Shown here: in pieces, positions 1-10,679 of the stretch
How the letters are laid out: the number at the start of each line of letters is the position of its first letter
Position numbering within the stretch: position 1 is the first letter of the stretch
Source: a virus
Taxonomy: Duplodnaviria > Heunggongvirae > Uroviricota > Caudoviricetes
DNA length: 10,679 bases
IMG/VR virus record: IMGVR_UViG_2648501186_000016
Strand: one strand, 5' to 3'
Translations under genes and position numbers: made by a program
Notes under the pieces: model-generated
Databases searched by the model: none
Told to the model about the DNA's origin: nothing
What the model saw: only the letters and a program-made list of their open reading frames with translations

Positions 1-777
1 AGGGAATCGGGATTCGAAGAAATGCGGCTGCGTCTCGCGCGGATTTGCGGGACTGGTGATGTTCTTGCCGAACATGCAGCCTTTCGCTGTCAGCGACCAG
101 AATTTTTTGATGTTGTTAATCGCGGTACGGCTGTATCGTTCGCGTTGTTCAACGATCCCCAGCTTCGCCATCTGGTGATATGCCTGATTAGCCGTCAGGC
201 GGATACCATACTGTTTCAGCAGTGCACTCAGCGACAGCGTAGGGCGACTTGAGCCATCAGGCGCGTCAGCAGGAGCATCAATGGCATAGCGCGGTGCCAG
301 ATTCGGTAAGCCAACAGCCTCCTGGAGTTTCTGACAGGCACCAAGCACTGAAGAGTTAGACAGGTTTAACTCCCTGCGCATAAAGTCCAGCAGAATCACT
401 CCAGCCTGCATCTTGTCAGCAGCCTGCCCGGATAATTTTTCCGGTGCGCTGGTTACCATATCGAAAGTACGGATCACCTTCAGATGGAATGACGGGCTGA
501 TCCACATTGCATAGGCATACACCAGTTCTTTGCAGACATACGTCCCCTGGTTATTTCCGCCATTAATGACGCTAACTGGTTGATTTTGTTCCAGAGGCGG
601 AATTCCACCCTCGGTGAAAAGTTGTTCAATCAATTCACAGGTTTGCTTATTGGAGAGCCAGTATTTCGGGCGGTTTTTTTGTTCTCCCCCGGCTGCCCTG
701 TGCAGATCGTTCAGGCTGTAACGCCCATAAGCATCACGACGAACTTCAATACCATCAATAACCATCAGATTATTCAT
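1..777 (-). CDS. KilA-N / KilAC-domain phage antirepressor-like protein (Ant/Roi-like); 5' end complete, 3' end runs off the window
   Basis: Absent from the supplied ORF track because it is open to the window edge. My translation of the minus strand from ATG 777-775 gives MNNLMVIDGIEVRRDAYGRYSLNDLHRAAGGEQKNRPKYWLSNKQTCELIEQL...GGNNQGTYVCKELVYAYAMWISPSFHLKVIRTFD, a KilA-N-type signature. It continues ...LSALLKQYGIRLTANQAYHQMAKLGIVEQRERY..., which resembles an antirepressor C-terminal domain. There are 259 sense codons down to base 1. Strong SD: TAAGAGGAGAAACGAAGT directly before the ATG (778-795). Confidence 0.75.
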   Translation of the reverse strand, partial: MNNLMVIDGIEVRRDAYGRYSLNDLHRAAGGEQKNRPKYWLSNKQTCELIEQLFTEGGIPPLEQNQPVSVINGGNNQGTYVCKELVYAYAMWISPSFHLKVIRTFDMVTSAPEKLSGQAADKMQAGVILLDFMRRELNLSNSSVLGACQKLQEAVGLPNLAPRYAIDAPADAPDGSSRPTLSLSALLKQYGIRLTANQAYHQMAKLGIVEQRERYSRTAINNIKKFWSLTAKGCMFGKNITSPANPRETQPHFFESRFP

Positions 778-796
778 ACTTCGTTTCTCCTCTTAA

Positions 797-1624
797 TCAG
801 GCGGCTGCACCCGCCGGTTTCTCATACTTACTGATAGTGATCTCGACCTTCCCTTTCGGGATAACCGGTCCCCACTCCACCAGCATTCTTTTCACCTGTC
901 TGTCGTCTTCCCACACACCCGCGTGGGTCAGGGCGTCAAACAGCGCCTTGTTATAGTTGTCCAGATCGCGGATCCGGTTACCCATCGCAGATACCCAGCC
1001 CGCATAGCGTTTCACACCTTCCAGCATGGTTTCGGGGTTTACCCCCTCATTCAAACGGGCTTTCCAGGCTTTGAAGGCTGCAGATTTTGAATTGCCACCA
1101 GCACGTTTGGGATATGCCAGCCATGCCTGCTCAAACTCCGGAGAGTATTCCGGTCGGTTTGAACGAACTCGCACAGACTCATCAGCAGATGCACCAACAG
1201 CTATTGGTTCATTGACTGGTTCTTTGACTGGTTCAAAAGAGTGACTGGTTCTGGGTGAATCTCCTGCATTACCCCCTGGTGCAACTCCTGCACTACCTGG
1301 TGAATTTGCTGCACCAGATAGTGAATTATTTGCACTACCCCCTAGTGAATCTCCTGCACCATCCAGATGAAGGAGATAGATATTACTTGAGTTACCTTTT
1401 TCACCTTTCCGGGTGACTTTTTTTACCAGCCCGGACTCACAAAGGGCCGCAATATGATTCATCACAGAACGTTTGCTAATCTCGCACTGGTCAGCAATAT
1501 GCTGGTAGCTGGGCCAGCACTCACCCTGATCGCTGGCATTATCAGCCAGCTTGATCAGAACCAGTTTTCGCAATGGATTACCCACTCGAATTTTCATCGC
1601 TTTAACCATCAGCGCCATACTCAT
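797..1624 (-). CDS. Chimeric ORF: winged-HTH replication-initiator-like N-terminus (aa 1-~216) fused in frame to the C-terminal half of a RusA Holliday-junction resolvase (aa ~217-275); probably a deletion product or pseudogene
   Basis: The N-terminus (PLRKLVLIKLADNASDQGECWPSYQHIADQCEISKRSVMNHIAALCESGLVKKV) is a typical HTH of phage replication/DnaD-like initiators. The central YSPEFEQAWLAYPKRAGGNSKSAAFKAWKARLNEGV block is typical of the same proteins. The tail RIRDLDNYNKALFDALTHAGVWEDDRQVKRMLVEWGPVIPKGKVEITISKYE aligns by eye to E. coli RusA [52 protein letters not shown] (recalled). The first ~65 RusA residues are missing. The start overlaps the upstream stop (ATGA at 1621-1624). Confidence 0.7.
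   Translation of the reverse strand: MSMALMVKAMKIRVGNPLRKLVLIKLADNASDQGECWPSYQHIADQCEISKRSVMNHIAALCESGLVKKVTRKGEKGNSSNIYLLHLDGAGDSLGGSANNSLSGAANSPGSAGVAPGGNAGDSPRTSHSFEPVKEPVNEPIAVGASADESVRVRSNRPEYSPEFEQAWLAYPKRAGGNSKSAAFKAWKARLNEGVNPETMLEGVKRYAGWVSAMGNRIRDLDNYNKALFDALTHAGVWEDDRQVKRMLVEWGPVIPKGKVEITISKYEKPAGAAA
1203..1358. repeat. Two iteron-like direct-repeat arrays inside the replication gene (putative ori)
   Basis: Array A is (T/G)TGACTGGTTC at 1212-1222, 1224-1234 and 1241-1251, with a partial copy at 1203-1210. Array B has five ~15-bp repeats, RGTGAAYYTYYTGCA-like, at 1254-1268, 1278-1292, 1299-1313, 1320-1334 and 1344-1358, spaced 24/21/21/24 bp. They lie in the low-complexity linker (GDSLGGSANNSLSGAANSPGSAGVAPGGNAGDSP), analogous to ori-lambda inside gene O. 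Confidence 0.5.
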
Positions 1625-1845
1625 GCTGCACCTCCGAGATGCTTCATGTTTTTTCCGGAGCGAAAGGTTATAAGCGGCATACTGACGCGGTAATTACGGC
1701 CCAGCGGTTCACAAATCACCTTCTGACATTCACGGTCCACCAGGCTAACACGTAGAACATGTCCTGCAGGTGTGGTGTACCACTGACCCGGACGAGGACA
1801 ACGGAAAGTCTGATTGGTAAACCGTTTGAAAATATTCCGGATCAT
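1621..1845 (-). CDS. Small hypothetical phage protein (74 aa), possibly DUF4222-like
   Basis: ORF in the track. Both ends are translationally coupled (ATGA overlaps at 1842-1845 and 1621-1624) within the early-right operon. I recognise no strong motif. Confidence 0.55.
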   Translation of the reverse strand: MIRNIFKRFTNQTFRCPRPGQWYTTPAGHVLRVSLVDRECQKVICEPLGRNYRVSMPLITFRSGKNMKHLGGAA

Positions 1846-2993
1846 TTGCGCCCCCTTACCTCTGAAGGGTTCAGCGACAAATTTATGAGGCAGGCCAGTG
1901 CCGAAGCATCATTAATATAGTCATACAAGCTAACAGCCAGCGGAGATTCGGCTTTTGCCAACATAGGATAAAGCTGCTGCAGCCAGACCTGATGAATTGA
2001 TGAAATGTAGGAACAGAGAACGCTGGCGTTATGTGCAACGTCGCTCGGTACAGCGGGCTTTGAAAGCTGTTTCTCCATCTGGTTAAAGGCATTGATGTAT
2101 GCCTCTTTGAACTGGGCAGCACGTTTACCCGTGAAACCCATAGCAAGAAACGCAAAGCCGTCGCGGGTTATTTGATAGCAAGGTAGTTTGCGGCCTGTGC
2201 AATCGGTGTAATCACTCACCGAAAAATTGCGGGCAGTGAATGATGCGGAACATTCAAGCGTGCGGATCTTTTTCAGTACATCGTCATGACGTTTGGAGAA
2301 GAAGTTGGCAACAGCCAGGGATGAAGTAACAGCCTGACCATCAACGATGGCAATTTCAGGTTGAGTGAGGGTTGGGATCGTAGCCATGATGGCAGCCTCT
2401 TTGGTGATTTTTAATAACTCACCACCAAGGCTTTCCACGACCTTATTGGTGGTGAGACGTACAGGGGTGGAAATACCGGTCACCAAAGAACCCGGCCCAA
2501 CCGAAGTTGGCCCTGCACGCCCCACCATAATTTGGGCGTAATGCTGCTCATGACACAAAAAAACCGCAAGAGCGCGGTTGTGCGCTTTGGTGAATTCCGG
2601 GTTTCCACGCCCGGCACCCGCTTTATAAGGTGCCTGAACAGTGTAACGTCCCGGAATGGCAGAATCAATGTGCTGGTGGTCCTTCACACTCAACAAAATC
2701 ACGCCTGAATTTCCACAAAGGACTAAAGCATTCATGCGGGTAGTCTTTGCGAAGATAGATAACGCGCTGTGTTTCTGGCTCCCAACGAATAACATGAACA
2801 TAAAGTCCTCTTCCGTCACGAAACCAGCGGTTAAGTTCCTGCACAACTCGCCCCCCACAGTCAGGTAAAGTTCTCTGTGGTTACTAACAGCCAGGTGATT
2901 TGGTAATCTGCATTCATGCCGTAACAACAGGTGTGCAGCGACACTGACCACCAGCTGTTGCGACAAACGGTTATTTGCCGTTAAACTGTTCAT
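1842..2993 (-). CDS. Rha-family phage regulatory protein module (aa 203-383) preceded in frame by a 202-aa region of unknown function
   Basis: The C-terminal part MATIPTLTQPEIAIVDGQAVTSSLAVANFFSKRHDDVLKKIRTL...YQITRDGFAFLAMGFTGKRAAQFKEAYINAFNQME is a full Phage_pRha-type domain. It has its own ATG (2387-2385) and SD (AGAGGCTGCCATC-ATG). The upstream ATG at 2993-2991 overlaps the CII-like stop (ATGA) and has GGAG 10 nt upstream. About 606 nt run stop-free, so the N-terminal region is or was coding. An alternative model is a Rha-only CDS at 1842-2387. Confidence 0.6.
   Translation of the reverse strand: MNSLTANNRLSQQLVVSVAAHLLLRHECRLPNHLAVSNHRELYLTVGGELCRNLTAGFVTEEDFMFMLFVGSQKHSALSIFAKTTRMNALVLCGNSGVILLSVKDHQHIDSAIPGRYTVQAPYKAGAGRGNPEFTKAHNRALAVFLCHEQHYAQIMVGRAGPTSVGPGSLVTGISTPVRLTTNKVVESLGGELLKITKEAAIMATIPTLTQPEIAIVDGQAVTSSLAVANFFSKRHDDVLKKIRTLECSASFTARNFSVSDYTDCTGRKLPCYQITRDGFAFLAMGFTGKRAAQFKEAYINAFNQMEKQLSKPAVPSDVAHNASVLCSYISSIHQVWLQQLYPMLAKAESPLAVSLYDYINDASALACLINLSLNPSEVRGRK
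2555..2579 (-). terminator. Intrinsic-terminator-like hairpin inside the 383-aa ORF
   Basis: The minus strand reads AACCGC-GCTCTT-GCGGTT followed by further Ts (7 consecutive T in total, plus-strand A run 2557-2563). It is preceded by two more hairpins on the same strand: CCGGG/CCCGG at 2597-2614 and GGCACC/GGTGCC at 2613-2634. The stem is modest (6 bp), so function is uncertain. Confidence 0.3.
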
Positions 2994-3541
2994 GCGTTAG
3001 TTTCTCCACAGACACAAAACGCCACGACGCCCGGAGCTGCACACTCGCGGGCGTCACTCTTTTCTGGAGCGCAGAAAATTTTGTAGACCAGTGCCGCATG
3101 CTCCTGGAGCTTCGAAATTGACAGATACAATTCATCATTAATTGCTGTCTGCTCGTGTGGCTCCACTACCCCATCTTCGATTGCCGAACGAATCTGCTTT
3201 GAGTAACTCCCGATCTGTTCGATGACTTCCAGCAGGCGCTGGTTTATATCTGCGTTCTCTACTTCCTCAATTTCAGGAAGCGATACAAACACCCCACCAG
3301 CAGACTGTGCGACAGCATCCGCAATGTAGTGAGTGCCAGCAGCACGCTGTAAAATCATTGCCCATCCCAGCGGGAAAATCTGATCGCCATCTGCACGAAG
3401 GCGGTTGAATAAAGCGTTCTCTGTAACATCCAGCCACTCAGCAGCTTCAGCGTAACCCCCCGGCAACGCCGCGATAGTTTTTCTGACAGCTTTCACGTAC
3501 CACTCAGGCTGTTTTTCCACTTTCCAGTGATGATTACCCAC
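2990..3541 (-). CDS. CII-like phage regulatory protein (phage 186 CII / CP76 family-like)
   Basis: 183-aa ORF with a GTG start at 3541-3539, preceded by AGGAGG plus 6 nt, and overlapping the cro-like stop. The pattern ...TENALFNRLRADGDQIFPLGWAMILQRAAGTHYIADAVAQSAGGVFVSLP...INQRLLEVIEQIGSYSKQIRSAIEDGVVEPHEQTAINDEL... matches my recollection of the 186 CII/CP76 architecture. Its position immediately after cro is as expected. Confidence 0.65.
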   Translation of the reverse strand: MGNHHWKVEKQPEWYVKAVRKTIAALPGGYAEAAEWLDVTENALFNRLRADGDQIFPLGWAMILQRAAGTHYIADAVAQSAGGVFVSLPEIEEVENADINQRLLEVIEQIGSYSKQIRSAIEDGVVEPHEQTAINDELYLSISKLQEHAALVYKIFCAPEKSDARECAAPGVVAFCVCGETNA

Positions 3542-3794
3542 GGCTTACCTCCTGTTCCTGTGGTTTAAACCCATTCTGGTTTTGGCTAGATTGAAAACGT
3601 GCCGGATAAAGAATCTGCATTTCGCTGATTTCACCCTTAAAAAAATTGGCCAGACGTTCTGCAAGATCGATAGATGGAATTTGTTCCAGTCTTTCAATAC
3701 GACTCAGCGTCGCTGGATTGACCTGAACGCCAGCAGCAACATGCTGCAAAGTAAATCCGTGCGCCTTACGCACATTCCGTAATGGTGATTGCAT
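3534..3794 (-). CDS. Cro-like XRE-family HTH regulator
   Basis: 86 aa. The HTH is FTLQHVAAGVQVNPATLSRIERLEQIPSIDLAERLANFF. SD GGAGG lies 4-8 nt before ATG 3794-3792. The gene is divergent from the cI-like repressor across a 97-bp operator/promoter region. Confidence 0.8.
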   Translation of the reverse strand: MQSPLRNVRKAHGFTLQHVAAGVQVNPATLSRIERLEQIPSIDLAERLANFFKGEISEMQILYPARFQSSQNQNGFKPQEQEVSRG

Positions 3795-3808
3795 ATGACC
3801 TCCACATA

Positions 3809-3871
3809 TTGCGTGATGAGCATATTATTTCACGCAAATATTTTGCGCAAGTTGATTTGCTTAACGCGCAA
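3809..3871. promoter_or_regulatory. OR-like operator cluster between cro-like and cI-like genes
   Basis: TTGC-N7-GCAA site at 3857-3871 (TTGCTTAACGCGCAA). One-mismatch copy at 3809-3823 (TTGCGTGATGAGCAT). Palindrome TTGCGCAA at 3843-3850. Large inverted repeat TTGCGTGA-N13-TCACGCAA at 3809-3837. The outer sites lie 48 bp apart (2 x 24), matching the 24-bp spacing of the OL-like pair. Confidence 0.55.
3822..3850 (-). promoter_or_regulatory. PR-like promoter for the cro-like operon
   Basis: On the minus strand: TTGCGC (complement of 3845-3850), 17-nt spacer, TAATAT (complement of 3822-3827). It sits about 20-25 nt upstream of the cro-like SD/ATG and overlaps the operator motifs. Confidence 0.5.
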
Positions 3872-3885
3872 TAAAGAAATGTAAT
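3857..3885 (+). promoter_or_regulatory. PRM-like promoter for the repressor gene (predicts a leaderless mRNA)
   Basis: TTGCTT (3857-3862), 17-nt spacer, TGTAAT (3880-3885). The ATG at 3892 lies 7 nt after the -10 and there is no SD before it. The -35 sits inside the TTGC-N7-GCAA site. Confidence 0.4.
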
Positions 3886-3891
3886 AAACGC

Positions 3892-4584
3892 ATGAACATA
3901 GGAAACCGAGTCAGACAACTTCGCCAGGCGAAGAACATGAAAATCGCCGATCTCGCTGAAGCAATAGGAGTGGATGCGGCGAATATCTCACGCCTGGAAA
4001 CAGGTAAGCAGAAACAATTCACTGAACAAGCCCTGAGTAATATTGCCAAGAGCTTAGGTGTTGATATTGCTGATCTCTTTACCTCAGACTTCAAAAGTAA
4101 TACTGTATGTAAAAACAGTATTAGTGAGGATGTTGCGCAGGTGAAGGATGTATTCCGTATTGAAATGCTGGATGTCAGTGCCAGTGCGGGAAATGGCCTT
4201 ATCCAGGGCGGTGATGTCATTGATGTGATTCATGCCATTGAATACAGAACTGATAATGCTGTATCGATGTTTGGTGGACGGCCAGCCAATCACATTAAAG
4301 TTATCAACGTTCGTGGGGACAGTATGTGTCCAACCATTGAGCCAGGAGATCTCATCTTCGTTGATGTCAGTATCAATCAGTTTGATGGAGATGGTATCTA
4401 TGTATTTGGTTTTGATGATAAAATTTATGTCAAACGACTGCAAATGATACCTGACAAACTACTGGTGATTTCTGATAACCAGATTTACCGTGAATGGGGA
4501 ATTACCAGCGAAAATGAACACCGGTTTATGGTCTTTGGAAAGGTCTTAATCAGCCAGTCACAAACCCTTAAGCGACACAATTAA
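3892..4584 (+). CDS. cI-like prophage repressor: N-terminal XRE HTH plus C-terminal S24 (LexA-like) autopeptidase
   Basis: HTH: MKIADLAEAIGVDAANISRLETGKQ. Putative Ala-Gly cleavage site in DVSASAGNG. Ser nucleophile in VRGDSMCPTIEPGDLIFV. Lys in IYVKRL. 230 aa, divergent from the cro-like gene. Confidence 0.9.
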   Translation: MNIGNRVRQLRQAKNMKIADLAEAIGVDAANISRLETGKQKQFTEQALSNIAKSLGVDIADLFTSDFKSNTVCKNSISEDVAQVKDVFRIEMLDVSASAGNGLIQGGDVIDVIHAIEYRTDNAVSMFGGRPANHIKVINVRGDSMCPTIEPGDLIFVDVSINQFDGDGIYVFGFDDKIYVKRLQMIPDKLLVISDNQIYREWGITSENEHRFMVFGKVLISQSQTLKRHN

Positions 4585-4604
4585 CCCTTACCTCCTCATC
4601 AATT

Positions 4605-4629
4605 AGCCACCCAAAGGTGGCTTTTCATT
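4605..4629 (+). terminator. Rho-independent terminator after the repressor gene
   Basis: AGCCACC-CAAA-GGTGGCT (7-bp stem, 4605-4622) followed by TTTTCATT, 21 nt after the TAA at 4582-4584. Confidence 0.7.
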
Positions 4630-4639
4630 ACCCTTTAAA

Positions 4640-4692
4640 TTGCATATCTCGCAACAAAAACACTTGCATAATGCGCAACTTCATTTTATCTT
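4640..4692 (+). promoter_or_regulatory. OL-like operator pair with a candidate PL-like promoter
   Basis: Two perfect TTGC-N7-GCAA sites: TTGCATATCTCGCAA (4640-4654) and TTGCATAATGCGCAA (4664-4678), 24 bp apart centre to centre. Candidate promoter TTGCAT (4664-4669), 17-nt spacer, TATCTT (4687-4692). The exact promoter assignment is uncertain. Confidence 0.45.
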
Positions 4693-5086
4693 TCTTTCCA
4701 GACAAACAAACAAGGTACTAACAAAATTTGGTTGTAACACGGCGTATGGCACATGCGTCGTTAGCGGTCTGGGGACGTTAAAGGGGACAATCCACTCCTT
4801 GCTCGGGCAAACAAACCAGGTAGCCGGAATGTGCAAGTCAATGATGATGCTGATAAGACGCCTAACCAGCGTGGCGATTCGGTTTGACGCCTGGGAAGAG
4901 ACCAGGGTGCAACGATGAGGGCATTTATGGAGCCGCGACAAAGTGTGGTGCCGTAACTGGCTAAGTGCTCTCAGCGTTGTGGTAATCCGCGAAATGGCGC
5001 GGCGGTAAGTATGGCGGGGTTACTCTTTCCCCGTTGAGGACACCGGATTGTCAGGTTGACCATACGCCTGAGTGACAACCCCACCA

Positions 5087-5150
5087 CAACAGCCACTGCT
5101 TTGGCGGTACCAGTTTGTACCCTTGCTTCCGGCTGGTACCGCTCTTTTTA
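5087..5150 (+). ncRNA. dicF: DicF-like sRNA including its terminator hairpin
   Basis: TTTGGCGGTACCAGTTTGTACCC...CTGGTACCGCTCTTTTT resembles my recollection of E. coli Qin DicF (TTTCTGGTGACGTTTGGCGGTATCAGTTTTACTCCGTGACTGCTCTGCCGCCCTTTTT). There is a perfect 10-bp stem GCGGTACCAG (5104-5113) / CTGGTACCGC (5133-5142) followed by TCTTTTTA. The context matches dicF: the repressor-controlled leftward operon of a lambdoid prophage. The 5' end is not determinable from sequence. Confidence 0.55.
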
Positions 5151-5286
5151 CAAAACAGAGAAGAGCATCACCGGACGACGGGCTCATAACCCAATCCATC
5201 CGGGCGGCTGCCACCGCAGGTGTTCTTCTCCGTTTTGTGGAGAAACCAACCGACCTTGCAGGGTCGATATGATGAGGAGCAGCAAA

Positions 5287-5649
5287 ATGGCTAGCGAACG
5301 CAGTACTGATGTGCAGGCATTTATTGGGGAGCTGGACGGCGGCGTATTTGAAACCAAAATCGGCGCAGTTCTCAGTGAAGTCGCTTCCGGTGTGATGAAC
5401 ACGAAAACCAAAGGTAAGGTCTCGCTCAACCTGGAAATCGAACCGTTTGATGAGAATCGTGTGAAAATCAAACACAAACTCTCGTATGTTCGCCCGACTA
5501 ACCGCGGGAAAATTTCCGAAGAAGACACCACCGAAACGCCGATGTATGTCAATCGCGGTGGTCGCCTGACTATTCTGCAGGAAGACCAGGGACAATTACT
5601 GACTCTTGCTGGTGAACCTGACGGAAAACTCCGCGCAGCAGGTCATTAA
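5287..5649 (+). CDS. yfdP: YfdP-like prophage protein (120 aa)
   Basis: MASERSTDVQAFIGELDGGVFETKIGAVLSEVASGVMNTKTKGK... with SD GAGGAG 7 nt upstream of ATG 5287. The track ORF (from TTG 5056) extends upstream through non-protein-like sequence that contains the terminator. In-frame ATG 5269 is an alternative start. Synteny with the yfdQ- and yfdR-like genes supports the call. Confidence 0.75.
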   Translation: MASERSTDVQAFIGELDGGVFETKIGAVLSEVASGVMNTKTKGKVSLNLEIEPFDENRVKIKHKLSYVRPTNRGKISEEDTTETPMYVNRGGRLTILQEDQGQLLTLAGEPDGKLRAAGH

Positions 5650-5714
5650 TATCGTTCTTAATTAACTGATTATTTATCTCATCACTGAATATCTTTATAT
5701 AGTGAGGACTTATT

Positions 5715-6539
5715 ATGTCTCAGAACTTAGACGCAACCGCAATTAATCAAATCCATGCCCTTATTTCTGCTCAGGGTGTTAATGAAATTATCAGTAAGAT
5801 TGGTGCCGATGCTGTGGCATTGCCTGAGAATTTCCGCATTCATGATCTGGAAAAATTTAATTTAAATCGCTTCCGTTTCCGTGGTGCGCTTTCCACTGCC
5901 AGCATCGATGACTTTACCCGTTATTCTAAAGATCTTGCAGATGAAGGCACCCGCTGCTTTATCGATGCTGATAATATGCGTGCCGTCAGTGTGCTTAACC
6001 TGGGTACTATTGATGAACCAGGTCACGCAGATAACACCGCCACTCTCAAACTGAAAAAGACAGCACCGTTCTCTGCTCTGTTGTCTGTTAATGGCGAGCG
6101 TAACTCCCAGAAATCACTGGCAGAATGGATTGAAGACTGGGCCGACTACCTTGTGGGCTTTGATGCTAATGGTGACACCATTCAGGCAACAAAAGCGGCT
6201 GCGGCGGTCCGTAAAATCACGATTGAAGCAAACCAGACCGCTGATTTTGAAGATAATGACTTCAGCGGCAAACGCTCCCTGATGGAGTCTGTCGAAGCGA
6301 AGACTAAAGACATTATGCCAGTGGCATTTGAATTTAAATGCGTTCCGTTTGAAGGCCTTAAAGAACGTCCGTTTAAATTACGCCTCAGCATTATCACTGG
6401 CGATCGTCCTGTACTGGTTCTGCGCATTATTCAGCTGGAAGCGGTGCAGGAAGAAATGGCTAACGAATTTCGTGATCTGCTTGTTGAGAAATTTAAAGAC
6501 AGCAAAGTAGAAACCTTTATTGGTACTTTCACCGCCTGA
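5715..6539 (+). CDS. yfdQ: YfdQ-like protein (DUF2303 family), 274 aa
   Basis: Clean 274-aa ORF, SD GTGAGGA before the ATG. The sequence and its position between the yfdP- and yfdR-like genes match my recollection of the CPS-53/KplE1 yfdPQR cluster. Confidence 0.8.
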
Positions 6540-6551
6540 TTTCATTACTGC

Positions 6552-6573
6552 AAATGCCCCTGCGGGGGCATTT
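6552..6573 (+). terminator. Stable hairpin after the yfdQ-like gene (weak terminator or RNA-stability element)
   Basis: AAATGCCCC-TGCG-GGGGCATTT: 9-bp stem, 4-nt loop, 13 nt after the stop. The U tract is short and partly within the stem, so it may only attenuate or stabilise. Confidence 0.4.
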
Positions 6574-6666
6574 ATGGAAACATAATTTACTCAATAATCG
6601 CCGGATGGTGATGGCTTCCTTTTACCAGAATTCAGCGCGGTGCAGCGCATATACGTGGAGAACGAA

Positions 6667-7203
6667 ATGTCATTTATTAAAACTTTTTCCGGGAAGCATT
6701 TTTATTATGACAAGATAAATAAAAATGACATCGTTATTAACGATATCGCGGTTTCCCTTTCAAATATCTGTCGCTTTGCTGGTCATCTTTCACACTTCTA
6801 CAGCGTTGCCCAACATGCGGTGCTTTGCAGCCAGCTGGTACCACAGGAATTTGCTTTTGAAGCGTTAATGCATGATGCAACAGAAGCGTATTGTCAAGAC
6901 ATCCCCGCGCCACTGAAACACATTCTTCCTGACTATAAACGGATGGAAGAAAAAATAGACGCCGTAATCCGTGAGAAATACGGGTTACCCCCGGTTATGA
7001 GCACGCCTGTGAAATATCCCGATCTCATCATGCTCGCAACCGAACGCCGTGATCTCGGGCTTGATGATGGCTCTTTCTGGCCTGTACTGGAAGGTATCCC
7101 GGCAACAGAGATGTTCAAAGTTATTCCACAGTCGCCAGGCCATGCCTACGGGATGTTTATGGAACGCTTTAACGAGTTATCGGAGTTACGCAAATGCGCA
7201 TGA
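6667..7203 (+). CDS. yfdR: YfdR-like HD-domain phosphohydrolase (5'-deoxynucleotidase family), 178 aa
   Basis: MSFIKTFSGKHFYYDKINK...SVAQHAVLCS...ALMHDATEAYCQDIP carries the H...HD metal-binding motif and is near-identical to my recollection of E. coli K-12 YfdR. I prefer ATG 6667 (GGAG 6 nt upstream) over the track's GTG 6640. Confidence 0.85.
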   Translation: MSFIKTFSGKHFYYDKINKNDIVINDIAVSLSNICRFAGHLSHFYSVAQHAVLCSQLVPQEFAFEALMHDATEAYCQDIPAPLKHILPDYKRMEEKIDAVIREKYGLPPVMSTPVKYPDLIMLATERRDLGLDDGSFWPVLEGIPATEMFKVIPQSPGHAYGMFMERFNELSELRKCA

Positions 7204-7237
7204 GTCTTTCAACTGCACAACCATTGGAGGGGTAGCA

Positions 7238-7432
7238 ATGAACAACTTAATGACAACTAAACAGGTCGCCGACTTCTGTGGTGTTTCAATATCAACAGTG
7301 CTTCGCTGGAACAGCATAAACCATAGAACAGGTAAGAAATATAGACCAGACTTTCCTGATCCTGATATAAAATCCTGTCCCAATAAATGGGCATCACACA
7401 AGATTTATAGGTTTGCGGGTATTATCGAATAA
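7238..7432 (+). CDS. AlpA/Xis-type small HTH DNA-binding protein (probable excisionase/RDF), 64 aa
   Basis: MNNLMTTKQVADFCGVSISTVLRWNS...RPDFPDPDIKSCPNKWASHKIYRF fits the AlpA/excisionase pattern (HTH, then FP.P, then a conserved W). SD GGAGGGG precedes ATG 7238. The longer track ORF (7049) overlaps the yfdR-like gene and is rejected. Confidence 0.7.
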   Translation: MNNLMTTKQVADFCGVSISTVLRWNSINHRTGKKYRPDFPDPDIKSCPNKWASHKIYRFAGIIE

Positions 7433-8102
7433 CATTTATTTGTTTCGATGTTAGCTGACACATCTATGGCACAGAGCAAAACCGAATATGATTGTCCACT
7501 CTGTGCTAGTAGAAAACATAGATATCAACTATCCGTACCAATCTATGAGTATAGAATAAATTAATCTGCTCGCAACTAATAGCCTCTAACAGCCAATACA
7601 GTGCCACCGATGATACAAAAAACAATACTCCAAAAAGCGTCTGGTATTGGATTGTCATTACTAGCTTCCGAGGTGAGATATGCATTAAGCCAGGTGCGCT
7701 GGAAAAGTTATGTTTCCCTAATGGAATTGCCCATGACTCAACATATTTTTTCTCTGTTGCTAGCGAATAGACCTAAAATGATAAGCACCATTAACATCAA
7801 CAGCGCCCCCTTGAGCTCTTCTTTTCGGTGAAAAGCCCATCATCAACGGCGCATTGCCTAACCCGAATTCTAGCCACCTTAGCCAGTATTTACCCCCTAG
7901 ATACCAAATGCTTACCCCTCTATTTGCTCTGATAATACTTTATTGCATAATCCCTCACTACATTAGACACTGCGTCAATCCTGCCTTCTATAGCTTGTTT
8001 TAACGCTTTCGGCACATTCCTCTGAACCAGCCCAAGATATGGCTGTTAAATTTTTACTTACATTCAAAAAAACTTTAACTTTTGCAATCAGATCATATGA
8101 TG

Positions 8103-8132
8103 TTGTTAATGGTAATATTCTGAATCTAAAAT
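8103..8132 (+). promoter_or_regulatory. Candidate sigma70 promoter for the cargo gene
   Basis: TTGTTA (8103-8108), 18-nt spacer, TAAAAT (8127-8132), about 30 nt upstream of ATG 8165. Spurious matches are easy in AT-rich sequence. Confidence 0.3.
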
Positions 8133-8164
8133 GACTTAAGAGTTCGTAGGTTAGAGGGACATGT

Positions 8165-9184
8165 ATGACTTCTGAAAGCAACAGAATTGGGAAGATGGGT
8201 GTAAACTACATAGAAGGTGTATTGACAAGATGGGGATGGGGATATCAATCAATTTCGCAAGAAAATGATGATGGGTTTGATGGCTTAATATATATAAGAT
8301 CTAAACGATTTGAGGCGAAAGATAAAGAAAACCGGAGTAAACAATCTTGGGAGTTCACTGGTGGGTTGATTCATGTACAAGTAAAAAGTGGAGATACATA
8401 CATTAGTAGTCGTAATAAAGATGAAATAAGGATCAAAATAAAAAACCTCAATGAAAAGAAGAAAATATGGTCTAGATCGTCTATTCCATGCATACTTGTA
8501 TTTGTTTTTTGGGATCATAATGAAGTTGAGTATTCCTACTGGGCTGATCTTAAATCTGAATTAACTTATTGTGATAACAGTAGTACGCTAATAAAAATCC
8601 CCTTAAAAAATAGATTTATGAGATCCCAAGAGTGTAAGGGGCCTTTAAGACGACTTGCAAGGGTATCGGCCAACTATGCAGATAAGCCGCTGATAGATTT
8701 ATCAAAATTTGACTCATTAAGTGGTAAGCTACCTACAAGTCTAAACAGTAACCTAAATTGTTCTTTGAAAAAGAAAGGTATTGAATTCTATCAGAAATGG
8801 CGATTAATTGGGGCTACAAACCCTTATTTTGGTCCTGTTCTAATAAACAGAACTGGTTGGAGTCATATAACTCGACGAAATCGCCCAATAGCAAGAATTG
8901 AAGCAAGCTTTAATTTGTTACCTTTAGCAGCAAGAATTATAAATGATGTATCTACATGGCGAATGTTAACACCCGTACGACGGTATGATAATAGAAAGGA
9001 TGGTTATGTTTGCTTTATAGATTTCGTTGGGTTAACAGCCAAAGTGAATTTAAAGAATCGCAACTCATCAGAAGTTATGGTTGTGTTAAAAAGGGAGAGG
9101 AGGTATAAACAGGGTGAAGACTGTTCCTCTGCGAAAACAAGATTATGGTTTTACACTGTTTATGAACCTGGAAGAGGAAAATAA
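8165..9184 (+). CDS. Cargo protein: N-terminal DUF4365-like PD-(D/E)xK nuclease-fold domain plus an unrecognised ~200-aa C-terminal domain
   Basis: 339-aa ORF with SD GAGGG 6 nt upstream. N-terminal motifs are GVNYIEGVL (E), NDDGFDGLIYI (D) and GLIHVQVKSG (QxK), followed by SIPCILVFVFWD...YSYWADL. This matches the DUF4365 pattern as I recall it. The gene is visibly much more AT-rich than its neighbours and sits between the xis-like gene and int. Confidence 0.75.
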   Translation: MTSESNRIGKMGVNYIEGVLTRWGWGYQSISQENDDGFDGLIYIRSKRFEAKDKENRSKQSWEFTGGLIHVQVKSGDTYISSRNKDEIRIKIKNLNEKKKIWSRSSIPCILVFVFWDHNEVEYSYWADLKSELTYCDNSSTLIKIPLKNRFMRSQECKGPLRRLARVSANYADKPLIDLSKFDSLSGKLPTSLNSNLNCSLKKKGIEFYQKWRLIGATNPYFGPVLINRTGWSHITRRNRPIARIEASFNLLPLAARIINDVSTWRMLTPVRRYDNRKDGYVCFIDFVGLTAKVNLKNRNSSEVMVVLKRERRYKQGEDCSSAKTRLWFYTVYEPGRGK

Positions 9185-9393
9185 ATTGAGGCGGTACAAT
9201 CGCGCTCAGGCTGTCCCAGACGTGATGCATAACACCACCGGTTCCAGAATTTAAGGATCTGGACCTTCAATTATGCGTGTACCGCCTTATGCAACAATAC
9301 TATAAAATTATTAAACGTCAAGATGTTCAATAAGATTTGGGCTTTCATGCCACAACACGAAAGTTCATTTTATAACGTCTAAAGCTTTCACAA

Positions 9394-9422
9394 TGTCCGC
9401 TTTTCGCAGCTCAAAGCGGACA
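9394..9422 (-). terminator. Hairpin downstream of int (possible terminator, no clear U tract)
   Basis: TGTCCGCTTT (9394-9403) / AAAGCGGACA (9413-9422): perfect 10-bp stem with a 9-nt loop, 34 nt past the int stop in a convergent intergenic region. Confidence 0.4.
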
Positions 9423-9455
9423 GTCATATTTGATTGTATTCTGGCTACTGGAGCC

Positions 9456-10679
9456 TCAGTTAGAGTCTGAGATAGTACAAGTAATGATCGATTCAACTCT
9501 CTCCCACCATGCCTGGTAGGCTTTACGCTGTTCTTCTAGATAATCGCTCTTATCATAAACTTGCCATACCCCTGGCAGTTTATGGCCGAGCATTATTTCT
9601 GCAATATGAGGCGCAGTAAGATCAGAAAAGTTTGTTCGTGCTGTTCGCCTCAAATCATGAAGAGACCAATGAGGGAATTGATACCCCAAACGCCGCCATG
9701 CGTACTGCATTAAATTGTAAGGCAGCGACTGCAATGATGTTCGTCCAACGGGTTCCCTGCTTCCTTCCTTAGTAAAAAGCATATCGGAACCATTGTTCAT
9801 AGAGATAACGTACTTTATAAGCTCTTCAACCGGTTCAATAATGGGGCGCTTTAGCGGTTCGCCTGTTATATCCCCTGTCTTATGTCGTTCTGGCGGTACA
9901 GTCCATACCTTATTAATGAAATCAAAATCATCCACCCTAGCGGTAATTAGCTCTGAACTACGGCAGCCAAAATGCAGCAATAGTTTAATGAAGGCCCGGT
10001 ATTTAGGAACCATTCGAGAACCATCGATCGCAGCATAAAGGATTTTAATTTCATCATGTGTCAGAAACCGTTTCTTCTGACCTTTACGGATATCCATATC
10101 TTTACCCGTGATATCCGACAGCGGGCGGGTTTCAATGAGCTTTCTCTTATAGGCCCAGACATGGGCCTGCTTTGCGTTAATTAGCAATCGGTCTGCTATT
10201 GCTGGAGTCTTAGTGCTAAGAGGCTCTAAGACTTCTAACCAATCATGCAATGTAGCTGCATCGTGAGGGATACTCCCGATTTTAGAGAACAGGTGCAGCT
10301 CAAACGAGCGGAGTATCTGTTCAGAACCTTTTTTATTTTTTACACAATATGCTTCATACCAGGCACGGATCACAGACTCTACCGTCATGGCTTCAGTAGC
10401 TTTTCGTTTTTCAGCCTGCTTGACCAATCGTGGATTACGGTTTGACTCGAGTTCACCACGAAGACGGAGAACTTCTTCTCTGGCCTCTTTTAATCCAGTT
10501 GCCGGGTAAGTTCCGATATCAAGACGCTCACCTTTCCCTGCCCATTGATAACGATATTGGAACACTACGCGACCTTTCGGTGATACTCTGACAGACAGAC
10601 CATCACGATCGGATTTAACCAAAACCTTATCACGTTCCTTTCCAACGACTGAACGCAACCACGCATCAGACAGCGCCAT
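9456..10679 (-). CDS. int: Tyrosine recombinase/integrase, P4/CP4-57 family (DUF4102 N-terminal arm-binding domain)
   Basis: 407 aa. N-terminus: MALSDAWLRSV...DGLSVRVSPKGRVVFQYRYQWAGKGERLDIGTYPATGLKEAREE. Catalytic motifs: HFGCRSSEL (Arg), WSLHDLRRTART (H-x-x-R), MLGHK...VYDKSDY (His, Tyr). The ATG is the last codon of the window, so attachment-site or tRNA sequence would lie beyond base 10679. Confidence 0.95.
   Translation of the reverse strand: MALSDAWLRSVVGKERDKVLVKSDRDGLSVRVSPKGRVVFQYRYQWAGKGERLDIGTYPATGLKEAREEVLRLRGELESNRNPRLVKQAEKRKATEAMTVESVIRAWYEAYCVKNKKGSEQILRSFELHLFSKIGSIPHDAATLHDWLEVLEPLSTKTPAIADRLLINAKQAHVWAYKRKLIETRPLSDITGKDMDIRKGQKKRFLTHDEIKILYAAIDGSRMVPKYRAFIKLLLHFGCRSSELITARVDDFDFINKVWTVPPERHKTGDITGEPLKRPIIEPVEELIKYVISMNNGSDMLFTKEGSREPVGRTSLQSLPYNLMQYAWRRLGYQFPHWSLHDLRRTARTNFSDLTAPHIAEIMLGHKLPGVWQVYDKSDYLEEQRKAYQAWWERVESIITCTISDSN

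What the first reader, a model, noticed from the sequence alone, without database searches (positions are those of the whole stretch)
8165..9184. AT-rich single-gene cargo at the int/xis junction: DUF4365-like nuclease head fused to an unrecognised C-terminal domain (candidate anti-phage or abortive-infection effector)
This gene and the ~730 bp upstream of it are strikingly more AT-rich than the rest of the prophage. That pattern, together with the position between the recombination genes, is typical of a laterally acquired moron. The first ~130 aa carry an E / D / QxK arrangement (YIEGVL, DDGFDGLIYI, HVQVK) plus the hydrophobic strand and YW that I associate with DUF4365, a PD-(D/E)xK fold recurrent in defence-system effectors. 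I do not recognise the remaining ~200 aa (…WRLIGATNPYFGPVLINRTGWSHITRRNRPIARIEASFNLLPLAARIIND…). They could be a sensor or a second effector domain. No partner gene is visible, so it would have to act alone. The int-proximal slot of temperate phages is a known hotspot for defence cargo. A defence function is inference only.
Basis: partly seen in the sequence, partly recalled or inferred. Interest (0 to 1): 0.7.

Follow-up and report, generated by a model that had tools for sequence, protein, structure and literature searches.

The report
Prophage nuclease gene with RNA partner
A prophage cargo gene for a DNA-cutting enzyme is always accompanied by a previously unnoticed small structured RNA gene, and the pair looks like a new toxin/RNA-antitoxin style anti-phage module.

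Summary
The ORF (8165-9184, 339 aa), its AT-richness and its position between xis and int are real. The N-terminal half is a bona fide DUF4365 ("DREN") PD-(D/E)xK nuclease with an intact DxGxD...QxK motif. Its best structural match is the SPARDA nuclease domain. The C-terminal ~150 aa form a well-folded conserved domain with no significant Pfam, PDB or viral-structure match. Its only resemblances are weak (RelE/BECR-like fold, faint LPD3). In relatives this domain is constant while the head is swapped for SIR2 or GIY-YIG, or extended with TIR, CHAT or EAD11. Directly after the stop codon, on the opposite strand (about 9186-9290), lies a ~100-nt structured RNA gene with its own conserved promoter (9294-9321). 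It shows strong covariation (20 of 31 pairs compensated). It is present in every locus with a homologue of about 38% identity or more. It is absent from control prophages and not in Rfam. Six of six metagenome loci found through the RNA alone carry the protein next to it. Protein plus RNA is the unit of horizontal transfer. It sits in prophage moron slots, defence islands and plasmids. Most likely it is a type III-like toxin/RNA-antitoxin defence module; function is inferred, not shown.

The parts
7238..7432 (+). Excisionase (xis); left border of the cargo slot
   Evidence: phrog_1553 E=1.6e-33 on residues 64-127 of ORF 7049-7432; HTH hits. Homology with prophages lacking the cargo runs 7226 to about 7506.
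7507..9404 (.). Variable int-proximal cargo slot, as occupied in this prophage
   Evidence: blastn against four prophages with the same int and att site (L015-L018): homology stops at about 7506 and resumes at about 9405-9456. Those prophages carry other genes here.
7507..8102 (.). AT-rich spacer specific to the E. coli version of the module; no conserved ORF; site of IS3 insertion in some genomes
   Evidence: Found only in the 22 E. coli genomes and not shared with other genera. No annotated gene. IS3 is inserted in H4-H7. Rfam: none.
8103..8132 (+). Sigma-70-like promoter candidate for the protein gene (TTGTTA-18-TAAAAT)
   Evidence: Consensus scan; a pattern match only. It lies outside the region conserved between genera.
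8165..9184 (+). Protein gene, 339 aa: DUF4365/DREN nuclease head plus a conserved C-terminal domain
8165..8629 (+). N-terminal PD-(D/E)xK nuclease domain (residues 1 to about 155), DUF4365 = DREN; catalytic candidates E4, D35, D39, Q72, K74
   Evidence: Pfam PF14280 E=7.3e-19. Invariant residues. Foldseek top hit is the XauSPARDA DREN-APAZ chain 9qcc_A, E=8.4e-11. The DxGxD...QxK motif is essential in the EAT16 toxin (PMC11297309).
8747..9181 (+). C-terminal domain (residues about 195-339): constant module of the family. Invariant G223 R229 G231 W232 H234 T236 R237 R240 S248 L251 L252 Y330 Y333 P335 R337. Proposed RNA-binding/regulatory domain.
9186..9290 (-). Structured non-coding RNA gene (~100 nt): 12-bp closing stem P1 (9190-9201 with 9275-9286), three inner hairpins, four-way junction
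   Evidence: More conserved than the CDS across genera. RNAalifold. CM hit 94 bits, E=6e-20. Covariation: 92.5% paired against 23-40% slid, 20 of 31 pairs compensated, 0/500 shuffles. z=-3.96. G.U 102 against A.C 15 favours this strand. No Rfam or tRNA hit.
9205..9221 (-). Nearly invariant RNA core (RNA sense GUCUGGgaCAGcCUGAG; family consensus GUCUGGAUCAGUCUGAG)
   Evidence: Present in all RNA-bearing loci, with one 2-mismatch off-target in 655 kb. A 21-nt version retrieved 6 metagenome loci, all next to the protein gene.
9294..9321 (-). Promoter of the RNA gene (TTGACG-16-TATTGT)
   Evidence: Found by scan. The -35, the -10 (TAnnnT) and the 16-nt spacing are conserved in 9 of 9 close-clade loci while the spacer sequence varies. 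In the ~40%-identity clade, 9 of 12 loci have an extended -10 (TGnTAnnnT) at the same place.
9456..10679 (-). Tyrosine integrase; right border of the slot (attachment next to yjjG)

Best explanation
The cargo is a compact two-gene protein-RNA module, not a lone gene. The protein has a DREN-type (DUF4365) non-specific DNase head and a conserved C-terminal domain. Convergent with it, starting within a few nucleotides of its stop codon, is a separately promoted ~100-nt structured RNA. I propose that the module works like a type III toxin-antitoxin / abortive-infection system of the AvcID or AbiF-RCd22 kind. In uninfected cells the abundant, short-lived RNA binds the C-terminal domain and keeps the nuclease head monomeric and inactive. 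When a phage shuts off host transcription, or degrades or sequesters the RNA, the RNA is lost. The proteins then self-associate, the DREN heads assemble into an active oligomer as they must in SPARDA, and DNA is degraded, which blocks phage production. Shown here: the gene, the nuclease domain with intact catalytic residues, the conserved C-domain with swappable heads, the structured RNA with its promoter, their strict co-occurrence and co-transfer, and the mobile/defence habitat. Inferred: transcription of the RNA, RNA-protein binding, the antitoxin role, activation by oligomerisation, and the anti-phage phenotype.
For: Nuclease head: Pfam E=7.3e-19; invariant D35, D39, Q72, K74; structural match to the SPARDA DREN domain, E=8.4e-11. 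The isolated DREN domain is an inactive monomer that needs tetramerisation (bioRxiv 10.1101/2025.04.08.647717). RNA: more conserved than the CDS; 25 CM hits in 444 kb, all on the opposite strand and abutting the stop codon, none in control prophages; covariation in P1-P3; strand asymmetry G.U 102 against A.C 15 and a conserved promoter; z=-3.96. Coupling: the same 22 of 5426 E. coli genomes; 6 of 6 metagenome loci found through the RNA core carry the protein convergently, 12-13 nt away; cross-genus DNA homology spans exactly ATG to RNA promoter; no conserved protein neighbour in 25 loci. C-domain as regulatory module: constant under DUF4365, SIR2, GIY-YIG, TIR, CHAT and EAD11 heads with motifs retained; weak but repeated similarity to RNA-handling RelE/BECR toxins. 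Habitat: int-xis, Q-lysis and P2 S-V moron slots; neighbours include R-M, Old, DarG, BrxA and a CBASS-like operon; plasmids; 11 IMG/VR contigs. Precedents for a single structured RNA antitoxin with a non-RNase toxin: AvcID (PMC10511110) and AbiF/RCd22. A DUF4365-headed single-cassette defence, Divona, has been validated.
Confidence: 0.5

Rival explanations
1. The RNA is not an inhibitor but a positive cofactor. It could be a scaffold that assembles the nuclease. It could be a bait that a phage factor cuts, modifies or binds, so that the protein guards it as retron msDNA is guarded. Or it could be a specificity element whose variable loops recognise invader nucleic acid.
For: The P2 and P3 stems and loops vary freely while an invariant 17-nt core is kept. 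DREN needs assembly to be active. The C-domain has conserved R/H/W/Y residues typical of nucleic-acid recognition or cleavage.
Against: Nothing distinguishes this from the antitoxin model computationally. The loops are short and no target complementarity was sought or seen. Constitutive-looking promoters and RNA retention next to decayed protein genes (L029 remnant) fit an antidote better.
Confidence: 0.2
2. One reading: a stand-alone sensor-effector protein. On this view the conserved 3' element is only an mRNA 3'-UTR structure (terminator or stabiliser) read on the + strand.
For: The element also folds on the + strand (-29.2 against -32.3 kcal/mol). No transcript data exist.
Against: A terminator does not need about 100 nt, a four-way junction and an invariant 17-nt core. 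There is no U-tract after the closing stem on the + strand. The -35/-10 with fixed spacing is conserved on the opposite strand. G.U pairs outnumber A.C 102 to 15 on the - strand.
Confidence: 0.1
3. Type I-like antisense control. The convergent RNA acts mainly by pairing with the read-through 3' end of the nuclease mRNA, triggering its decay or blocking its expression, without binding the protein.
For: The arrangement is convergent with no + strand terminator between the stop codon and the RNA gene. So the transcripts should overlap by about 100 nt, as in txpA/RatA-type loci (general knowledge).
Against: Pure antisense needs no conserved secondary structure, yet 20 of 31 pairs show compensatory change. 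Type I toxins are small membrane peptides, not 339-aa nucleases. Both modes could coexist, as RCd22 acts at both levels.
Confidence: 0.1
4. The C-terminal domain is itself an active BECR-fold RNase. It would act as a second effector, or as the enzyme that processes the RNA, instead of being a passive binding domain.
Confidence: 0.07
5. The 3' element is a DNA-level mobility or recombination site (attC-like folded single strand). Alternatively, the protein is a type IV restriction enzyme whose tail reads modified DNA.
For: The element marks the end of the horizontally transferred unit. Divona, a DUF4365 defence gene, is an integron cassette. The layout, a nuclease head plus a reader tail, resembles PvuRts1I (my own recollection).
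Against: No RYYYAAC/GTTRRRY core sites by inspection. The structure is a four-way junction, not a single hairpin. The sequence is highly conserved, unlike attC sites. The G.U asymmetry and the promoter argue for RNA. No integron integrase lies nearby. No SRA, EVE or YTH-like fold hit. SIR2, TIR and CHAT heads do not fit a restriction enzyme.
Confidence: 0.03

Closest known systems
Type III toxin-antitoxin / Abi systems with a single structured RNA antitoxin: AvcID (AvcD deaminase + AvcI sRNA) and AbiF-RCd22
   Same: A protein effector is encoded next to a dedicated, separately abundant non-coding RNA. In those systems the RNA binds and neutralises the protein, and loss of the RNA after phage-induced transcription shut-off activates it (PMC10511110; bioRxiv 10.1101/2025.04.15.648962). 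They are carried on prophages and mobile elements.
   Different: The effector here is a DREN PD-(D/E)xK DNase with an unclassified C-domain. The RNA is a new family (no Rfam hit). It is downstream and convergent, abutting the stop codon. Binding and neutralisation are not shown.
Classical type III TA (ToxIN, CptIN, TenpIN)
   Same: A protein toxin plus an RNA antitoxin acting as an abortive-infection module. Possibly an RNase-like RNA-binding domain.
   Different: Those antitoxins are tandem repeats upstream of the toxin in the same orientation, and the endoRNase toxin processes them. Here there are no repeats, the orientation is convergent, and the toxic activity is expected to be a DNase.
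SPARDA (short pAgo + DREN-APAZ)
   Same: The same nuclease domain (DUF4365/DREN; Foldseek E=8.4e-11). The activity is probably gated by oligomerisation and linked to an RNA.
   Different: No Argonaute and no APAZ domain. The RNA is a dedicated structured gene product, not guides sampled from transcripts.
Divona (Vibrio cholerae integron-cassette defence gene)
   Same: A single protein with an N-terminal DUF4365 nuclease and a different C-terminal domain. It is experimentally anti-phage. Homologues are reported in E. coli within 20 kb of integrases (bioRxiv 10.1101/2024.07.02.601686).
   Different: Its tail was described as crr6-like (PF08847), which neither this protein nor 144 relatives hit. 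No RNA partner was reported. I could not obtain the sequence, so identity or homology with this family is unresolved.
LPD3 (PF18798) of phage and plasmid polyvalent proteins
   Same: 6 of 144 family members give sub-threshold LPD3 hits that fall on the C-domain.
   Different: The window protein has no LPD3 hit at E<=1, and the hits lie below Pfam's cut-off. LPD3 has no known function (PMC5512222).

Membership tests
DUF4365 / DREN (PF14280, PD-(D/E)xK clan) | Pfam profile match above the gathering score | tested here: met
   68.6 bits against a cut-off of 24.3, E=7.3e-19, residues 10-153
DUF4365 / DREN (PF14280, PD-(D/E)xK clan) | Catalytic motif DxGxD...QxK present and conserved | tested here: met
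   D35, G37, D39, Q72 and K74 are invariant in 38 homologues. The motif is defined and mutated in EAT16.
DUF4365 / DREN (PF14280, PD-(D/E)xK clan) | Fold matches a solved DREN domain | tested here: met
   Foldseek top hits 9qcc_A/Q (XauSPARDA), E=8.4e-11 and 3.5e-10
SPARDA | APAZ domain fused to the nuclease | tested here: not met
SPARDA | Adjacent short pAgo gene | tested here: not met
   No conserved protein neighbour in 25 loci. No Piwi or Argonaute in the gene lists of six loci or among the 25 most frequent of 95 neighbour Pfam families.
Type III toxin-antitoxin | Protein toxin gene adjacent to a dedicated non-coding RNA gene | tested here: met
   Structured RNA with its own promoter abutting the stop codon in all loci of the clade. 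Transcription itself was not observed.
Type III toxin-antitoxin | Antitoxin made of tandem repeats upstream of the toxin | tested here: not met
   No tandem repeats. The RNA is a single copy, downstream and convergent.
Type III toxin-antitoxin | The RNA binds and neutralises the protein; the protein alone is toxic | not testable with these tools
   Needs toxicity/rescue assays and RNP purification
Type I toxin-antitoxin | Small hydrophobic toxin peptide regulated by an overlapping antisense RNA | tested here: not met
   The toxin candidate is a 339-aa soluble two-domain nuclease. Only the convergent-RNA geometry is shared.
Divona (DefenseFinder) | N-terminal DUF4365 nuclease in a single-gene system | tested here: met
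   description
Divona (DefenseFinder) | C-terminal crr6-like (PF08847) domain | tested here: not met
   No PF08847 hit at E<=1 for this protein or at E<=1e-3 in 144 relatives. The authors used HHpred and fold tools, so a faint relation is not excluded.
Divona (DefenseFinder) | Sequence homology to the V. cholerae N16961 Divona protein or its DefenseFinder model | not testable with these tools
   Sequence and model unavailable. No Vibrio-named protein appeared in three homologue searches.
LPD3 (PF18798) | Pfam profile match above the gathering score | tested here: not met
   No hit for this protein. In the member checked individually (P0202), 21.8 bits against a cut-off of 27, on the C-domain. 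6 of 144 members hit at E<=1e-3.
BECR / RelE-like RNase fold | Significant structural similarity to a solved member | tested here: inconclusive
Rfam RNA families / tRNA | Covariance-model or ARAGORN match | tested here: not met
   No Rfam 15 hit at E<=1 on 7000-9600, and only a noise hit at E=9.4 on 9150-9350. ARAGORN found none.
Integron cassette attC site | R''/R' core sites (RYYYAAC ... GTTRRRY) flanking a single imperfect hairpin | tested here: not met
   The core sites are absent by inspection of 9185-9325. The consensus fold is a four-way junction.
Retron | Reverse transcriptase gene next to the ncRNA | tested here: not met
   No RT among the neighbours

The most novel reading that the evidence does not exclude
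The C-terminal domain is a previously unrecognised RNA-sensing module that couples a dedicated, co-inherited structured RNA to interchangeable death effectors (DREN DNase, SIR2, TIR, CHAT, GIY-YIG). That would define a new, widespread class of RNA-gated single-protein immune systems. The divergent structured elements seen downstream of the TIR, SIR2 and EAD11 variants would be cognate RNAs of sister clades.
Probability: 0.3. Interest if true: 0.9.

Novelty: new variant of a known kind. Interest (0 to 1): 0.78.

Why it matters
If correct, this adds a new protein-RNA pair to the small set of RNA-antitoxin defence modules. It is the first with a DREN DNase as the effector, with a new structured RNA family and a new RNA-associated protein domain. 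It would explain how a stand-alone DREN nuclease, inactive as a monomer in SPARDA, is kept safe and then triggered without an Argonaute. It also shows that 'single-gene' defence candidates can hide RNA partners that protein-centred pipelines miss. That matters when such genes are cloned for testing: a construct ending at the stop codon would lose the RNA and might be unclonable or misleading. The module is short (about 1.16 kb), occurs in porcine ETEC and other Enterobacteriaceae prophages, and is directly testable.

Tried and rejected
1. Type IV restriction (PvuRts1I-like SRA tail): no SRA, EVE or YTH fold hit, and the SIR2, TIR and CHAT heads do not fit.
2. APAZ-like tail: no structural hit.
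4. AFDB Foldseek search: library unavailable.
5. Viral structure library: nothing significant.
6. PDB sequence-profile search with the C-domain: 0 hits.
7. LPD3 link: only 6 of 144 members, all sub-threshold. One checked member (P0202) falls on the C-domain, and ten further divergent members show none.
8. Slot as a proven defence hotspot: five alternative occupants in four prophages match nothing in Pfam or PADLOC, so this is inconclusive.
9. Conserved protein partner: none in 25 loci.
10. Phage genome database: no tblastn hit.
11. The RNA as tRNA, tmRNA or a known Rfam family: none.
12. Tandem-repeat antitoxin: none.
13. Extending the RNA model to the SIR2, TIR, CHAT and EAD11 variants and to homologues of 26-31% identity: no significant hit even with filters off.
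14. Identifying Divona's sequence through papers, supplements and three homologue searches: failed.
Full report
1. THE OBSERVATION

The ORF is real: 8165-9184 on the + strand, 339 aa. Its start is fixed by the family-wide N-terminus MTSESNR and by a GAGGG Shine-Dalgarno sequence.

The gene has GC 0.354 (GC3 0.279). The 732 bp upstream have GC 0.391. The rest of the window has GC 0.474, and no 1020-bp window in 1-7432 falls below 0.417.

The gene lies between an excisionase (phrog_1553, E=1.6e-33, about 7238-7432) and a tyrosine integrase (9456-10679, - strand). These belong to a lambdoid, yfdPQR-type prophage inserted next to yjjG.

The module is found in 22 of 5426 complete E. coli genomes. 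It is always chromosomal and at least 99.7% identical, and most carriers are porcine ETEC. The exact protein is on record from about 1000 contigs.

2. THE PROTEIN

Residues 10-153 match Pfam DUF4365 well above threshold (E=7.3e-19). NCBIfam and PHROGs give nothing. PADLOC gives only weak hits to the N-terminus, from pAgo-associated REase and PDC-M02A models.

In an alignment of 38 homologues, D35, D36, G37, D39, Q72, K74 and W126 are invariant. D35/D39/Q72/K74 correspond to the DxGxD...QxK motif whose mutation kills the DUF4365 toxin EAT16 (PMC11297309).

The AlphaFold model is confident (pLDDT 85.6). Its best PDB match is the DREN-APAZ subunit of the activated XauSPARDA filament (9qcc, E=8.4e-11). 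In SPARDA the isolated DREN domain is an inactive monomer and cuts DNA only when assembled into a tetramer (bioRxiv 10.1101/2025.04.08.647717).

The C-terminal part (about 195-339) also folds confidently on its own (pLDDT 88, pTM 0.83). It forms helices packed on a long antiparallel sheet. It has no significant relative:
- the PDB profile search finds 0 hits;
- the viral structure library gives nothing.

3. THE C-DOMAIN IS THE CONSTANT MODULE

A profile of the C-domain finds 297 cluster representatives among 1.84 billion proteins. Of the 144 best:
- 99 carry DUF4365;
- 4 carry SIR2, 3 TIR and 3 CHAT;
- one each carries GIY-YIG (T5orf172/MUG113), EAD11 and Mrr_cat;
- 6 give sub-threshold LPD3 hits, and the one examined individually (P0202) falls on the C-domain itself.

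SIR2 and GIY-YIG replace the DUF4365 head. TIR, CHAT and EAD11 are added in front of it. All variants keep the GW.H.TR..R motif, and full-length ones keep FYSVYE. A constant tail under interchangeable effectors is the usual signature of a sensing or regulatory module.

4. HABITAT

Across 25 non-redundant loci there is no conserved protein neighbour. The only recurrent family is a tyrosine integrase, in 6 loci. The gene occupies:
- the int-xis slot here;
- the Q-lysis slot of a Yersinia prophage;
- the gpS-gpV slot of P2-like Enterobacter prophages;
- positions next to an XamI R-M system (Acinetobacter), between an OLD nuclease and a 1470-aa NOV_C protein (Pseudomonas), and after a CBASS-like operon;
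- plasmids and 11 IMG/VR contigs.

Bulk annotation of 125 neighbours finds integrases, P2 tail genes, Old, type I and II R-M, DarG, BrxA, mad2, TmtA, PDC-S02, DO-GTPases and PIN_8.

The integrase of this prophage occurs in 700 genomes, but the cargo occurs in only 22. Four other prophages with the same int and att site carry unrelated, unannotated genes in the slot. The slot is therefore hypervariable. Its being a defence hotspot is not shown by this sample.

5. THE UNEXPECTED PARTNER

Comparing loci at the DNA level showed that homology between genera begins exactly at the ATG. It continues 100-145 bp beyond the stop codon. The 732-bp upstream stretch is not shared.

The 3' non-coding stretch is more conserved than the CDS. 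It folds into a 12-bp closing stem and three inner hairpins, about 97 nt in all (z=-3.96).

At its distal end, on the minus strand, sits TTGACG-16-TATTGT (9321-9294). In nine loci from different genera the -35, the TAnnnT and the 16-nt spacing are conserved while the spacer sequence differs. In the ~40%-identity clade, 9 of 12 loci instead have an extended -10 (TGnTAnnnT) at the same position.

A covariance model built from nine sequences found 25 hits in 444 kb:
- all are on the strand opposite the protein gene;
- all begin within about -5 to +13 nt of its stop codon;
- they occur in Gamma- and Betaproteobacteria, a Salmonella plasmid, an IMG/VR contig and an Acidobacteriota remnant;
- there are none in the four control prophages.

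On the 25-sequence alignment:
- 92.5% of cells pair, against 23-40% when the partners are slid;
- 20 of 31 pairs show compensatory double changes;
- 125 cells carry double changes, against 10-21 in the slid controls;
- 0 of 500 shuffles reach the observed values.

That alignment was fitted to the model, but an independent RNAalifold run gives 19 compensated pairs. G.U pairs outnumber A.C mismatches 102 to 15 (33 to 15 without the invariant helix), which favours the minus-strand RNA.

A 17-nt core, GUCUGGAUCAGUCUGAG, is nearly invariant. The RNA is not in Rfam 15 and is not tRNA-like. It is not made of tandem repeats.

The reverse association also holds. In E. coli the RNA region occurs in the same 22 genomes, as a single unannotated copy. 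A metagenome scan with a 21-nt core returned 6 loci, and all 6 have the DUF4365+C-domain gene convergent and 12-13 nt away.

So the unit of inheritance is [protein gene + convergent RNA gene], about 8165-9322.

6. LIMITS OF THE RNA FINDING

The model finds nothing significant next to the SIR2, TIR, CHAT, EAD11 or HNH-like variants. It also finds nothing next to the most distant DUF4365 homologues (26-31% identity), including a second, rare E. coli subfamily.

Some of these loci do have a well-folded element with a long closing stem right after the stop codon:
- TIR locus: z=-4.8;
- SIR2 locus: z=-3.0 on the minus strand against +0.1 on the plus strand;
- EAD11 locus: z=-3.0.

The TIR and SIR2 elements resemble each other. 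With two or three loci this is only suggestive.

7. MECHANISM

The best-supported reading is a type III-like toxin/RNA-antitoxin abortive-infection module. The constitutively made, structured RNA binds the C-domain and keeps the DREN head from assembling. Loss of the RNA on infection frees the protein to oligomerise and degrade DNA.

Precedents for single structured RNA antitoxins acting on non-RNase or HEPN-type toxins are AvcID (PMC10511110) and AbiF/RCd22. The existence and coupling of the parts are shown here. Binding, neutralisation, triggering and phage defence are all inferred.

Rivals: the RNA as activator, bait or guide; pure antisense control of the read-through mRNA; the element as a mere 3'-UTR structure; the C-domain as an active RNase; an attC-like site or a type IV restriction enzyme. 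Each is weighed in its own entry.

8. COMPARISON AND NOVELTY

The head is a clear member of DUF4365/DREN. The system is not SPARDA, because it has no APAZ domain and no Argonaute. It is not a classical ToxIN-type type III TA, because the RNA has no repeats and a different geometry. It is not a retron.

Divona is a validated Vibrio integron-cassette defence gene with a DUF4365 head and a 'crr6-like' tail. Its homologues were reported near integrases in E. coli. It may be the same or a sister family. I could not obtain its sequence, and neither this protein nor 144 relatives hit PF08847. No RNA partner has been described for it.

I therefore rate the finding as a new variant of a known kind (RNA-antitoxin-type defence). 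It has three new parts: the effector context, the C-domain and the RNA family.

Noticed in passing
L046:4246-4375, L048:4230-4335, L049:1972-2070 (loci of TIR-, SIR2- and EAD11-headed relatives): Directly after the stop codon of these variant-head relatives lies a well-folded ~100-130-nt element with a long closing stem. z is -4.8 (TIR), -3.0 on the minus against +0.1 on the plus strand (SIR2), and -3.0 (EAD11). The sequence is unrelated to the RNA described here. The TIR and SIR2 elements share sequence. These may be divergent cognate RNAs.
   Followed up: partly
window 7238-7432; L001 19839-20033: The excisionase gene (phrog_1553, E=1.6e-33) is not annotated in the RefSeq record of the identical prophage. 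The RNA gene is also unannotated in all 22 genomes.
   Followed up: partly
window about 7433-7445 (hits H4-H7): In four porcine E. coli genomes an IS3-family element is inserted in the AT-rich spacer between xis and the nuclease gene. This lengthens the match span from 2061 bp to 3397 bp.
   Followed up: no
L015:3424-4400, L016:3121-4116, L017:2782-4329, L018:3496-4215: Other prophages with the same integrase and yjjG attachment site carry different genes in the int-proximal slot (160+150 aa, 331 aa, 515 aa, 239 aa). None has a Pfam or PADLOC hit. They are further candidate cargo or defence genes.
   Followed up: partly
L042:6986-7981 (E. coli H240 chromosome, filed as a plasmid in PLSDB): This is a second, distant subfamily (26% identity, 331 aa, motifs RRGWEHITRKSRP and FYSVHE kept). 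It is present in only 2 of 5426 complete E. coli genomes but is widespread in Morganella, Yersinia, Raoultella, Pseudomonas and Ralstonia. No RNA was detected downstream with the present model.
   Followed up: partly
P0084 (223 aa, partial, 'Bacilli bacterium' MAG): The C-terminal domain (72% identical) runs directly into a BRCT domain after residue ~153, replacing the usual WFYTVYEPGRGK end. This may be a genuine fusion or an assembly chimera.
   Followed up: no
L013:2248-8942: The distant homologue P0098 lies 79 bp downstream of, and co-oriented with, a CBASS-like gene row: a 392-aa gene, an E2/E1/JAB fusion, a patatin gene and a 353-aa gene. It might be an extra effector of that operon or an independent neighbour.
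   Followed up: no
L002:9160-9999 (-) and L008:9555-10559 (+): Locus-specific neighbours of unknown function. In Yersinia, a 279-aa protein with a faint HEPN_Cthe2314 hit lies between the module and the Q antiterminator. In Caballeronia, a 334-aa protein without Pfam hits is conserved in two contigs.
   Followed up: no
L043:6001-7143 (Salmonella IncFIB plasmid CP053577.1) and L029:2162-2776: The RNA is retained next to a protein gene annotated as truncated (Salmonella plasmid). It is also retained next to a 164-aa C-domain-only remnant (Acidobacteriota MAG). This pattern is often seen when a toxin decays and its antidote persists.
   Followed up: partly
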